A DNA stretch of 64,000 nucleotides, taken from a virus (taxonomy: Duplodnaviria; Heunggongvirae; Uroviricota; Caudoviricetes). Location: the IMG/VR virus record IMGVR_UViG_2839610755_000002; one strand, 5' to 3'. Below the pieces are notes generated by a model. The model made no database searches. It was given only the letters and a program-made list of their open reading frames with translations, and had not been told where the DNA came from. The stretch's first letter is position 1, and each line of letters begins with the position of its first letter. Positions 54,666 to 56,933 of the stretch are shown here, piece by piece. The position numbers were made by a program, and so were the translations under genes.

Positions 54666-54741
54666 TGGTGGCCCCTACCGGACTTGAACCGGTGACCGTG
54701 CGATTATGAGTCGCCAGCTCTAACCACTGAGCTAAAGGGCC
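54666..54741 (-). tRNA. tRNA with CAU anticodon, closest to tRNA-Ile2 (lysidine type)
   Basis: Cloverleaf with encoded CCA; close to E. coli ileX as I recall it. Confidence 0.85.
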
Positions 54742-54768
54742 GGATTACTGCCAATTTTGCTTACGCTT

Positions 54769-55596
54769 TTATTTCACCGGAACAAACGGAACAGCGGTAT
54801 TACTGGTCATATACTGCGGTAATGTACCGTTCCATTTGTTGATCGCTTCCAAGTCCATAACACCGGGGTTCTGGCGCAGAGCTTCACCACGTAAACGAAT
54901 GGCATCAGCTTCGGCCTGGGCTTTTGTGCGAATAGCATCAGCCTGTCCGGCAGCTTCCGCGCGCAGCATGTTGGCCTCTGCTTCACGTTGTTTGACCTCT
55001 TGCTCGCGTTGCAGGGTTTTTTGGTTTGCCGTGACTTTGGCGTTAATACTGTCAATAACTGTTGGCGGGTATTCTGGCTTACCTACATAAGAGAGGCTCA
55101 TCACCTGAATGCCGATTGGCGTCATTTCTTCCTGAATGTCTTTAAGGGCTGCATCAAGCAATTCAGATTTGCCACCGTCGATAAATTTGTCGGTGGTCAT
55201 TTTGCTGGCTAATCGGTTCAGAGCATCTGCAACCTTCTGGCGTAGATCGGTATCAGTAATATCATCTACACCTTTGCGATAGGTCTGAAATACCGTTGTG
55301 ACTTTTGCTGGATCAACCTTGTAGGCTACGCCGATGTGGTAACCAATGGTTGTTCCGTCGCTCATCTGGAAGCTGAACGGCTCATCGTATGTCTTCATTT
55401 GCTTAAAGGTCGGGAAGATATAAACTTCAGTATTCAAGCCTGTCCAGTAGCGACCAACGCCAACTACTTCACCGATACCTTTATCATCCCCCAGCTTATT
55501 TACTTTGATCCCTACGTTACCTGGCTCTACCCGATCGCATCCGGTCAGACATAAAGAACCCAAAATAATCGCTGCACTAATCAACGTTTTTTTCAT
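54769..55596 (-). CDS. plp: lipoprotein (Plp-like)
   Basis: Signal peptide with lipobox LTGC; Ala/Glu/Gln-rich C-terminal region; 275 aa; name by position. Confidence 0.55.
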   Translation of the reverse strand: MKKTLISAAIILGSLCLTGCDRVEPGNVGIKVNKLGDDKGIGEVVGVGRYWTGLNTEVYIFPTFKQMKTYDEPFSFQMSDGTTIGYHIGVAYKVDPAKVTTVFQTYRKGVDDITDTDLRQKVADALNRLASKMTTDKFIDGGKSELLDAALKDIQEEMTPIGIQVMSLSYVGKPEYPPTVIDSINAKVTANQKTLQREQEVKQREAEANMLRAEAAGQADAIRTKAQAEADAIRLRGEALRQNPGVMDLEAINKWNGTLPQYMTSNTAVPFVPVK

Positions 55597-55813
55597 TAAT
55601 TAATTTCCTGGTTTTTTCACGAAAAAAGACTACTGCGAAAGCCGGGTAAATGAGCGCGAGAAGGACTCCCAACAATACAAGTATTGTGCTGTTAGATGAG
55701 ATCATATTTGGCAAAAGCCAAACATACAGAACCAGTGACACAATCAAACAGAGGACGGCATAAATATATAACCGCACCCATAGCGTTCGACATTTGTTCG
55801 GATTGTTCTGCAT
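55577..55813 (-). CDS. upl: small membrane protein (Upl-like)
   Basis: Two hydrophobic segments; directly upstream of plp; name by position. Confidence 0.45.
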   Translation of the reverse strand: MQNNPNKCRTLWVRLYIYAVLCLIVSLVLYVWLLPNMISSNSTILVLLGVLLALIYPAFAVVFFREKTRKLINEKNVD

Positions 55814-55991
55814 CCTCTCACTCCATTATTTAACGAATAAAAAAGCTGCGGTGCCGGGTTCCTCCCGGTGTCCTTTGGCTGGTTATCCACCGTGGACGTG
55901 GAAACAAGGAGAAATAATGGACAGATATAACCATTTCCCCGCGTGCGCTTAGCCGCATTCACCGCAACGGAAAGAGCATTCTTGGTGGACC

Positions 55992-56039
55992 TGTAGATTG
56001 GGATATGAACCCGTTACAGGAGAATGCTCTTACCTGTTA
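55992..56039. repeat. repeat unit A+B in non-coding spacer
   Basis: A recurs at 56271-56296 and B at 56664-56683; an inverted partial copy lies at about 56623-56640. Confidence 0.5.
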
Positions 56040-56270
56040 CGTGCTCCGTTTCGTGGAGCTAACGGCGGGTGATCAGACCGCACCAGACTGGACTTATTTC
56101 AGCGTTATGCTCATGCCAGAGAATCAAACTGTGATGGTCGGTGCTGAACTCCGACACAGGGTTGTAGCAAGCCCCGCAAAGCGCGCACTACTGTAGTTGC
56201 GGCACATCAGCCTGTGCATTCACCACAATGTTGAGAACACTGGTTGTCACGCGGCAACGCAACATTTATT

Positions 56271-56296
56271 CGTAGATTGGGATATGACCCCGTTAC
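56271..56296. repeat. second copy of repeat A (CGTAGATTGGGATATGACCCCGTTAC)
   Basis: Direct repeat of 55992-56017 with 2 mismatches. Confidence 0.5.
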
Positions 56297-56686
56297 GCCA
56301 GTGTTCTCAACGTTGTAGTTGTTATGCGTATTCTCTTACTAACCGCACACCAATACATTTCCCATCACGTTCATTTGTCTCGAAACGTGAATACTTAAGT
56401 TCGCCGTTAATAATCGCTGTTACAACCCGTATCCCGTTAAACGCCCACATATTTCGCTCCATTTACACACATTACCAGTCGCCGGTTACGGTTCCGGCCA
56501 GGCCTCTTCCTCAACGGGGTGTTCTCCATACGGACTACCGTTTATTGGTCGTTCCTGCGGTTTATGTTGTGAAGCCAGATGCTTATCTTCTGGTTGCTTC
56601 TAAGATCTGCACTTCATCACAACGGTAAGAGCACTCGATGCATTTAAGCCAGGCCCCATAAGGGAGAATGCTCTTACCTGTTATGT

Positions 56687-56762
56687 TGGTGCCGATTAAC
56701 GGGATCGAACCGCTGACCATTCGCTTACAAAGCGACTGCTCTACCAACTGAGCTAAATCGGC
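56687..56762 (-). tRNA. tRNA-Thr (anticodon UGU)
   Basis: Cloverleaf with canonical D-loop and T-loop, encoded CCA. Confidence 0.85.
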
Positions 56763-56766
56763 AATG

Positions 56767-56853
56767 TGGTGGGGAGTGATGGAGTCGAACCACCCGAGTC
56801 GCAATGACAGTAGATTTACAGTCTACCCCGCTACCCCTACGGACTAACTCCCC
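56767..56853 (-). tRNA. class II tRNA-like gene, anticodon GUA (Tyr-like), long variable arm
   Basis: 7-bp acceptor stem, perfect anticodon stem, 14-nt variable arm, encoded CCA; D-arm pairing imperfect. Confidence 0.5.
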
Positions 56854-56858
56854 TAAAG

Positions 56859-56933
56859 TGGCGATGGTGGGTGGATTCGAACTACCGACCAGTTGGTTAA
56901 CAGCCAACTGCTCTACCGCTGAGCTACACCATC
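56859..56933 (-). tRNA. tRNA-Asn (anticodon GUU)
   Basis: Cloverleaf with canonical loops, encoded CCA. Confidence 0.85.

What the first reader, a model, noticed from the sequence alone, without database searches (positions are those of the whole stretch)
54666..56933. tRNA set includes a possible fourth, Tyr-like class II tRNA between tRNA-Thr and tRNA-Asn
Besides tRNA-Ile2-like (CAU), tRNA-Thr (UGU) and tRNA-Asn (GUU), the 87-nt spacer between Thr and Asn folds as a class II tRNA with anticodon GUA, a 14-nt variable arm and encoded CCA. P1 is usually described with three tRNAs, so this is either an overlooked or additional tRNA-Tyr, or a pseudo-tRNA.
Basis: partly seen in the sequence, partly recalled or inferred. 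Interest (0 to 1): 0.4.

Follow-up and report, generated by a model that had tools for sequence, protein, structure and literature searches.

The report
Real fourth tRNA (Tyr), already annotated
The stretch between tRNA-Asn and tRNA-Thr is a genuine tyrosine tRNA gene of a type common in coliphages, brought into this P1-like plasmid prophage by a swap of the whole tRNA cassette, and public records already annotate it, so it is ordinary.

Summary
ARAGORN calls tRNA-Tyr(GUA) at 56767-56853 (minus strand, 87 nt, CCA encoded) between tRNA-Asn and tRNA-Thr, and Rfam's tRNA model scores it 41.9 bits (threshold 29). It is neither a pseudo-tRNA nor an overlooked P1 gene. P1 and P7 have Asn and Thr back to back and lack this sequence.

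The window is not P1. It is 100% identical over 10 kb to plasmid prophage pF1273-3 of E. coli O157:H7, where RefSeq already annotates tRNA-Ile, Thr, Tyr and Asn.

The gene belongs to a large phage tRNA-Tyr lineage (T4-, T5-, FelixO1-, SSU5-like; 1,524 phage records, 244 plasmids, 5% of complete E. coli genomes). Covariation is strong: 99% paired and 16 of 24 pairs with compensatory changes.

The 257-bp Asn-Tyr-Thr block is 97.7% identical to an SSU5-like phage-plasmid, while the flanks are P1-like. The whole cassette was therefore exchanged.

Tyr codons are barely enriched, unlike ACA and AUA. I favour replenishment of the tRNA-Tyr pool, as shown for T5-family tRNA-Tyr against retron-Eco7, over rare-codon supply, but this is inference.

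One curiosity: the lineage has 4-5 nt instead of 2 between the acceptor and D stems.

The parts
56859..56933 (-). tRNA-Asn(GUU), 75 nt, first gene of the cassette. It is 88% identical to P1 trnA, 98.7% to the SSU5-like CMS-2020a copy and 94.7% to the N4-type copy.
56854..56858 (-). 5-nt spacer (CUUUA) between Asn and Tyr
56767..56853 (-). tRNA-Tyr(GUA), 87 nt including the encoded CCA. Domains, 5' to 3', in window coordinates: acceptor 5' strand 56853-56847; connector UAGU 56846-56843; D arm CCGU-AGGGGUA-GCGG 56842-56828; G26 at 56827; anticodon stem-loop 56826-56810; variable region 56809-56795; T arm 56794-56778; acceptor 3' strand 56777-56771; discriminator A at 56770; CCA 56769-56767.
56817..56819 (-). 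anticodon GUA (reads TAC on the plus strand). The loop CUGUAAA is identical to that of E. coli tRNA-Tyr.
56763..56766 (-). 4-nt spacer (CAUU) between Tyr and Thr
56687..56762 (-). tRNA-Thr(UGU), 76 nt, last gene of the cassette. It is 89.5% identical to P1 trnT and 98.7% to the CMS-2020a copy.
56681..56937 (-). Exchanged cassette: this block is 97.7% identical to the SSU5-like phage-plasmid CMS-2020a. Homology starts and stops within about 5 nt of the outer tRNA ends.
57588..57615 (-). C1 repressor operator Oban overlapping promoter Pban, mapped from the P1 annotation. The leader 56925-57660 is 99% identical to P1. This is the presumed start of the transcript that carries the tRNAs.
57406..57425 (-). 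Terminator-like hairpin plus a T run inside the leader, in P1's 'dicF-like' region. It may attenuate read-through into the tRNAs.
54666..54741 (-). tRNA-Ile2-type (anticodon CAU), about 1.9 kb downstream in the same orientation

Best explanation
This is a functional tyrosine tRNA gene of a phage-borne lineage. It sits as the middle gene of a three-tRNA cassette (Asn-Tyr-Thr) in the ban-operon region of a P1-like plasmid prophage. The cassette was acquired as a unit by recombination with another coliphage or phage-plasmid and replaced a P1-type Asn-Thr pair. What is shown: the gene, its cloverleaf, its covariation, its distribution and the mosaic joints. What is inferred: when C1 repression is lifted, transcription from Pban runs through the leader into the cassette. 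RNase P and 3' trimming release the tRNA, and no CCA addition is needed. Host TyrRS charges it, since it has G1:C72, A73, G34-U35-A36 and a long variable arm. It then reads UAU and UAC. Its most likely benefit is to keep the tRNA-Tyr pool up during lytic growth when the host pool is limiting or under attack by tRNA-targeting defences, rather than to read rare codons.
For: Two predictors pass it, and PGAP annotates identical copies as tRNA-Tyr. Across 28 distinct relatives 99% of cells pair, 16 of 24 pairs change on both sides, 0 of 500 shuffles reach this, and slid controls pair at about 45%. The anticodon loop is identical to host tRNA-Tyr, A73 and G1:C72 are present, and the variable-arm stem GUC/GAC is the same as in tyrT. 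All copies are intact at 93-100% identity: 244 plasmids and 269 of 5,426 complete E. coli genomes. The cassette is 97.7% identical to SSU5-like CMS-2020a, while its Asn and Thr are only 88-89% identical to P1's. The upstream leader is 99% identical to P1, including the C1 operator. Tyr codons run at 31.0 per 1000 against about 28 in E. coli, whereas ACA and AUA are about twofold enriched. T5-like tRNA-Tyr shares the same architecture. T5-family tRNA-Tyr rescues phage from retron-Eco7, which depletes host tRNA-Tyr (PMC11555353).
Against: There are no expression, charging or phenotype data for this gene. The thermodynamic z-score is unremarkable at -0.67. The Rfam score is lower than for the neighbouring tRNAs (41.9 versus 65-70 bits), because of the long arm and a 2-nt insertion before the D stem. 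A terminator-like hairpin lies between Pban and the cassette, and no promoter-like site was found closer in. The D stem is invariant in my alignment because I selected sequences on its motif, so it is untested there. The E. coli codon frequencies are recalled from memory, not computed. In Azam et al. rescue depended on a strong promoter, and nothing shows this cassette is highly expressed.
Confidence: 0.8

Rival explanations
1. Classical codon supply: the tRNA is functional, but its only role is to match the phage's demand for Tyr codons during late protein synthesis.
For: The other three tRNAs fit this logic. ACA is at 13.0 versus about 7 per 1000, AUA at 10.3 versus about 4.4, and Asn codons are slightly raised. 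Several ORFs have 40-50 Tyr codons per 1000.
Against: Overall Tyr codon use is only about 9% above the recalled E. coli value. Tyr is read by a single isoacceptor that every E. coli genome encodes, with a median of 3 copies, so it is not a rare-codon tRNA.
Confidence: 0.3
2. Passenger: the Tyr gene came along with the Asn and Thr genes in a cassette swap. It is neutral or non-functional in the P1-like background (a pseudo-tRNA in the making).
For: P1 and P7 do without it, and about 489 plasmids keep the direct Asn-Thr junction. The locus shows signs of tRNA turnover: T-arm-like remnants, and a Ser(UGA) gene present in P7 and CMS-2020a but absent here.
Against: All 244 plasmid copies are full length at 93-100% identity. 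The differences seen between lineages are compensatory or lie in loops. The same lineage is kept in strictly lytic T4-, T5- and FelixO1-like phages.
Confidence: 0.07
3. Non-decoding role: a tRNA-shaped RNA that acts as a decoy or sponge for a tRNA-Tyr-directed nuclease, or as a processing signal for the polycistronic transcript, without needing to be charged.
For: The lineage has an unusual 4-5 nt connector before the D stem. Its D-arm motif is almost absent from bacterial genomes, with 4 hits in 185,579 species representatives.
Against: Every element needed for charging and decoding is conserved: A73 in all 36 distinct copies, the anticodon loop and the T loop. Azam et al. found that changing the anticodon or the stems of the T5-family tRNA-Tyr abolished rescue, and concluded that its function in protein synthesis is essential.
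Confidence: 0.05

Closest known systems
tRNA-Tyr(GUA) on E. coli P1-like and SSU5-like plasmid prophages (e.g. pF1273-3 NZ_CP038378.1, pO111_2 NC_013370.1, phage vB_EcoM-Ro157c2YLVW MH160767.1, CMS-2020a CP054387.1)
   Same: Identical or at least 97% identical gene in the same Asn-Tyr-Thr order and spacing, annotated as tRNA-Tyr.
   Different: Nothing of substance. The window is one of these elements.
tRNA-Tyr of lytic coliphages: T4-like (JB75, KMB20), T5-like (IrisVonRoten) and FelixO1-like (heid)
   Same: 78-93% identity. Same architecture: 7-bp acceptor, 4-5 nt connector starting UA, CCGU/GCGG D stem, GUC-AUUG(C/A)-GAC variable arm and A73.
   Different: Different neighbours and gene order (Tyr-Asn in JB75, Asn-Tyr-Asp in heid, Tyr-Glu-Trp-Phe in the T5-like phage). 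Those phages are lytic and carry many tRNAs.
T5-family tRNA-Tyr that counteracts retron-Eco7 PtuAB (Azam et al. 2024, PMC11555353)
   Same: Same isoacceptor, and the same structural lineage judging from a Tequintavirus copy. The mechanism is pool replenishment.
   Different: In T5-family phages the gene has its own strong promoter, and the effect was measured. Here expression is presumed to come from C1-controlled Pban and nothing has been measured.
E. coli tyrT/tyrV/tyrU
   Same: Class II tRNA with an identical anticodon loop, G1:C72, A73, the same variable-arm stem, and 20 nt between the acceptor 5' strand and the anticodon stem.
   Different: 74% identity. The host has a 2-nt connector, a 9-nt D loop and a 13-nt variable region. 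The window gene has a 4-nt connector, a 7-nt D loop and a 15-nt variable region.
P1/P7 tRNA set (trnA Asn, trnT Thr, trnI Ile2)
   Same: Same locus, orientation and C1-controlled leader, and the same trnI.
   Different: No Tyr gene. Asn and Thr are 2-5 nt apart and only 88-89% identical to the window's. Between Thr and trnI, P1's tciABC genes are replaced here by an SPFH-domain gene.
N4-type cassette Asn-Ser(UGA)-Thr
   Same: Same three-gene layout with a class II tRNA in the middle and the same 5-nt and 4-nt spacers. 75% identity overall, 94.7% for Asn.
   Different: The middle gene is an unrelated 90-nt tRNA-Ser.

Membership tests
tRNA (Rfam RF00005) | Scores at or above the family's gathering threshold | tested here: met
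   41.9 bits against 29, full-length match to model positions 1-71
tRNA (Rfam RF00005) | Cloverleaf helices maintained by compensatory change among relatives | tested here: met
   The acceptor, anticodon, variable and T helices are 97.6-100% paired. 16 of 24 pairs change on both sides and 0 of 500 shuffles reach this. The D stem is invariant because of how sequences were selected. More distant copies have CGGU/GCCG in its place.
tRNA (Rfam RF00005) | Canonical 2-nt connector (positions 8-9) between the acceptor and D stems | tested here: not met
   The connector is 4 nt (UAGU). Infernal models 'gu' as an insertion. All 36 distinct lineage members have 4 or 5 nt.
Bacterial-type tRNA-Tyr | Anticodon GUA in a 7-nt loop with U33 and A37 | tested here: met
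   Loop CUGUAAA, identical to E. coli tyrT
Bacterial-type tRNA-Tyr | Long (class II) variable arm | tested here: met
   15-nt variable region with a 3-bp stem. That stem covaries across relatives.
Bacterial-type tRNA-Tyr | Discriminator A73 and G1:C72, the E. coli TyrRS identity set (from my own knowledge of the identity literature, not checked in a paper here) | tested here: met
   A73 is invariant in 36 distinct copies. G1:C72 is present here and in 27 of the 28 aligned sequences.
Bacterial-type tRNA-Tyr | Charged with tyrosine by TyrRS and used on the ribosome | not testable with these tools
   Only indirect support: T5-family relatives needed an intact anticodon and intact stems to rescue phage (PMC11555353).
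Coliphage tRNA-Tyr lineage (T4-, T5-, FelixO1-, SSU5-like) | Sequence similarity across the full length, plus a shared D-arm and variable-arm signature | tested here: met
   1,359 phage records cover at least 80% of the gene, at 77-93% identity in the rows listed. Shared architecture.
P1 tRNA complement | The gene is present at the same place in the P1 and P7 reference genomes | tested here: not met
   P1 and P7 have Asn and Thr adjacent with no Tyr
Anti-defence tRNA (pool replenishment against tRNA-depleting systems) | Restores phage growth on a host whose defence depletes the cognate tRNA | not testable with these tools
   Shown for T5-family, KpP_HS106 and E. coli tRNA-Tyr against retron-Eco7, not for this gene.

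The most novel reading that the evidence does not exclude
The coliphage tRNA-Tyr lineage to which this gene belongs has a D stem shifted 2-3 nt towards the 3' end. That gives a 4-5 nt connector instead of 2 and a shorter D loop, with the same total length as host tRNA-Tyr. This architecture is nearly absent from bacterial chromosomes. It could be an adaptation that lets the phage tRNA escape a host nuclease or modification enzyme that reads the elbow or D-arm geometry of host tRNA-Tyr, while TyrRS still charges it.
Probability: 0.1. Interest if true: 0.5.

Novelty: already known. Interest (0 to 1): 0.12.

Why it matters
It matters little for discovery. The gene is already annotated in GenBank and RefSeq copies of this element and belongs to a very common phage tRNA lineage.

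The useful outcomes are corrective. 'P1 has three tRNAs' describes the laboratory phage, not P1-like plasmid prophages in general: in PLSDB, 244 plasmids (P1-like and SSU5-like together) carry this Tyr gene and about 489 have the direct Asn-Thr junction. The tRNA block also behaves as an exchangeable cassette shared with an unrelated phage-plasmid lineage.

If the replenishment idea is right, carriage of this cassette would predict which P1-like prophages can grow on hosts armed with tRNA-Tyr-depleting defences.

Tried and rejected
- **Thermodynamic stability.** The z-score was -0.67, which is uninformative.
- **Alternative D-arm registers.** I considered an E. coli-like 10-12/23-25 pairing, a 5-6 bp extended D stem using G26, a GUCC/GGGG mini-hairpin, and an 8/4 acceptor/T arrangement. 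None pairs in the window copy, or none is kept in JB75 and the other relatives (reasoned from the sequences).
- **'Overlooked in P1'.** Rejected, because the sequence is absent there.
- **Simple insertion of Tyr into a P1 cassette.** Rejected, because the flanking Asn and Thr are also non-P1.
- **My early assumption that the window is phage Ro157c2YLVW.** This was wrong. An ungapped comparison failed, and BLAST shows 99.5% identity with an indel plus a different segment inside dmt. The 10-kb stretch I tested (52000-62000) matches plasmid pF1273-3 at 100%.
- **Literature searches.** I searched for the phage name, for P1-like plus tRNA-Tyr, for Punavirus plus tRNA, and for the connector feature. 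None found anything specific.
- **The KpP_HS106 tRNA-Tyr sequence.** Not available in the text held.
- **A review consulted for TyrRS identity rules.** It covered only the archaeal enzyme.

Full report
**Observation.** ARAGORN finds four tRNA genes in the window, all on the minus strand:
- an anticodon-CAU tRNA at 54666-54741
- Thr(UGU) at 56687-56762
- Tyr(GUA) at 56767-56853
- Asn(GUU) at 56859-56933

Rfam's tRNA model matches the Tyr gene end to end at 41.9 bits against a gathering score of 29. The three neighbours score 65-70 bits. The lower score comes from the long variable arm and a 2-nt insertion before the D stem. The minimum-free-energy fold is a complete cloverleaf, although its energy is no better than that of shuffled sequence (z = -0.67).

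The Thr-Asn gap is 96 nt, of which the tRNA takes 87, with spacers of 4 and 5 nt. The variable region is 15 nt rather than 14. CCA is encoded. The CAU tRNA is 89.5% identical to chromosomal E. coli genes annotated tRNA-Ile, so 'Ile2-like' is correct and ARAGORN's 'Met' label is only the default reading of the anticodon.

**What the window is.** The 401 bases around the cassette are 100% identical to Escherichia phage vB_EcoM-Ro157c2YLVW, a Punavirus whose record annotates tRNA-Asn, Tyr and Thr. Over 8.4 kb, however, the window differs from that record by an indel and by a different segment inside dmt. A 10-kb stretch is 100% identical, in one piece, to plasmid pF1273-3 (99.8 kb) of E. coli O157:H7 strain F1273. 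There RefSeq annotates tRNA-Ile, an SPFH-domain protein, tRNA-Thr, tRNA-Tyr and tRNA-Asn. The fourth tRNA is therefore already in public annotation.

**Comparison with P1.** In P1 (NC_005856) and P7, the Asn and Thr genes are 2-5 nt apart and no Tyr gene exists. The gene was therefore not overlooked in P1.

It is also not a simple insertion. The window's Asn and Thr are only 88.2% and 89.5% identical to P1's. The block 56681-56937 as a whole is 97.7% identical to CMS-2020a, whose flanks resemble Salmonella phage SSU5 and not P1. Upstream, the 735-nt leader is 99% identical to P1 and includes the C1 operator/Pban sequence. Downstream, upl and the start of plp are 97.5% identical to P1. The whole tRNA cassette has therefore been exchanged between two unrelated phage-plasmid lineages, with joints within about 5 nt of the outer tRNA ends.

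**Is it a real tRNA?** The gene belongs to a very large phage lineage. 1,524 phage records match it, mostly annotated tRNA-Tyr, in T4-like, rV5-like, FelixO1-like and T5-like phages.

From viral contigs I collected 36 distinct copies and aligned 28 of them. The cloverleaf is 99% paired. 16 of 24 pairs show changes on both sides, none of 500 shuffles reaches the observed values, and sliding the partners by 1-3 columns drops pairing to about 45%. The D stem is invariant in that set because I selected on its motif. More distant copies carry CGGU/GCCG at the same place, which is consistent with pairing.

A73 is present in all 36 copies. G1:C72 is present in the window copy and in 27 of the 28 aligned sequences. 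The anticodon loop CUGUAAA and the variable-arm stem GUC/GAC equal those of host tRNA-Tyr. These features match the E. coli TyrRS identity set as I know it. I could not confirm that set in a paper here.

**Distribution.** 244 PLSDB plasmids carry the gene at full length and 93-100% identity. They fall into two size classes, about 92-100 kb and about 105-114 kb. About 489 plasmids have the P1-type direct Asn-Thr junction. 269 of 5,426 complete E. coli genomes (5%) carry the gene, always on plasmids and never on a chromosome. The four-tRNA form is thus a common natural variant.

**Likely mechanism.** From the P1 and P7 annotations, the cassette lies downstream of the C1-repressed ban promoter, and that sequence is conserved here. 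I infer the following:
- The cassette is expressed on derepression.
- RNase P and 3' trimming process the transcript.
- Host TyrRS charges the tRNA.
- The tRNA decodes UAU and UAC.

A terminator-like hairpin in the leader, together with the lack of any closer promoter-like site, leaves the expression level open.

**Likely benefit.** Tyr codons run at 31.0 per 1000 in 42 long ORFs of the window, against about 28 in E. coli (a value recalled, not computed). ACA and AUA are roughly doubled. Rare-codon supply therefore fits the Thr and Ile2 genes but not Tyr.

Azam et al. (PMC11555353) showed three things:
- Retron-Eco7 PtuAB depletes host tRNA-Tyr.
- tRNA-Tyr from T5-family phages, from a Klebsiella phage, or from E. 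coli itself restores phage growth when driven by a strong promoter.
- An intact anticodon and intact stems are required.

A Tequintavirus tRNA-Tyr has the same architecture as the window gene. I therefore favour pool replenishment as the benefit, but this is inference.

**A structural curiosity.** All members of the lineage have 4-5 nt (UA plus 2-3 variable nt) between the acceptor and D stems, where tRNAs normally have 2. The D loop is correspondingly shorter, so the total length of this region equals that of host tRNA-Tyr at 20 nt.

I ran a rough census of 1,614 ARAGORN tRNA calls from the fetched loci, counting identical sequences once. The loci were chosen through tRNA-Tyr patterns, so the census is biased. 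It found 46 strict cases of the shifted register, 38 of them tRNA-Tyr.

The D-arm motif with a GUA anticodon occurs in only 4 of 185,579 species-representative bacterial genomes. Some phage records label the gene tRNA-Val or tRNA-OTHER, or leave it unannotated, and ARAGORN misses the 5-nt-connector copy in KMB20. I found no paper describing this feature.

**Verdict.** The finding is correct and the gene is real, but it is already annotated and belongs to a well-populated phage tRNA lineage. Interest is low.

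Noticed in passing
window 56843-56846 (connector of tRNA-Tyr); also L006, L007, L244, L245 and about 36 viral-contig copies: The whole coliphage tRNA-Tyr lineage has a 4-5 nt connector (UA+NN) between the acceptor and D stems instead of 2 nt. The D loop is shorter, so the total length equals that of host tRNA-Tyr. The motif is almost absent from bacterial genomes (4 hits in 185,579 species). Annotators sometimes miss the gene or mislabel it (tRNA-Val, tRNA-OTHER, none).
   Followed up: partly
L003 (P7, AF503408) 1053-1139 minus strand; L004 (CMS-2020a) 2430-2516 minus strand: ARAGORN calls an identical 87-nt tRNA-Ser(UGA) about 450-500 nt downstream of tRNA-Thr in both P7 and the SSU5-like CMS-2020a. 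The P7 record does not annotate it. The window has no such gene.
   Followed up: no
window 56616-56688, minus strand: A strongly folding ~70-nt hairpin (-34.6 kcal/mol, z = -3.3) starts right at the 3' end of tRNA-Thr. Its stem is GGUAAGAGCA/UGCUCUUACC. P7 has a near-identical sequence at the same place. It has no T run and no Rfam match. It could be a processing or stability element.
   Followed up: partly
window 56019-56039 and 56663-56683: An exact 21-bp direct repeat, GGAGAATGCTCTTACCTGTTA (none expected by chance). One copy abuts tRNA-Thr and the other lies where homology to CMS-2020a ends. The core CTTACCTGTT recurs just 3' of tRNA genes in P1, P7 and CMS-2020a. T-arm-like remnants lie nearby in P1 and CMS-2020a, which suggests repeated tRNA gain and decay.
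   Followed up: partly
window 54769-55596, minus strand: The 275-aa ORF between tRNA-Thr and tRNA-Ile2 is an SPFH/Band-7 protein (Pfam E = 1e-30) whose N-terminus looks like a lipoprotein signal (my reading of the sequence, not tested). The Ro157c2YLVW record calls it 'putative serine protease'. Together with a 78-aa hydrophobic-looking ORF (55577-55813) it replaces P1's tciA/B/C genes, and there is no P1 homology across 54751-55838.
   Followed up: partly
window 56320-56480: A 161-bp insertion relative to P1 inside the plp homologue. The resulting 143-aa ORF (56197-56628) has no Pfam match. The Ro157c2YLVW record annotates a 42-aa hypothetical ORF on the opposite strand here.
   Followed up: no
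window 58719-58898: A segment inside the dmt methyltransferase gene differs between the window (180 nt) and phage Ro157c2YLVW (426 nt). The sequence on either side is 99.5-99.9% identical.
   Followed up: no
window 46865-46981 (+); 23362-23449 (-), 51691-51776 (-); 23474-23551 (-); 51844-51896 (-): Rfam matches at gathering score: an ALIL pseudoknot (the frameshift signal of an IS3-family element, so an IS insertion), two C4 antisense RNAs, isrK, and the c4 a1b1 target.
   Followed up: no
window 55847-55966, minus strand: A sub-threshold match to the sRNA family STnc100 (38 bits against a gathering score of 47, E = 4.5e-06) in the region upstream of upl.
   Followed up: no
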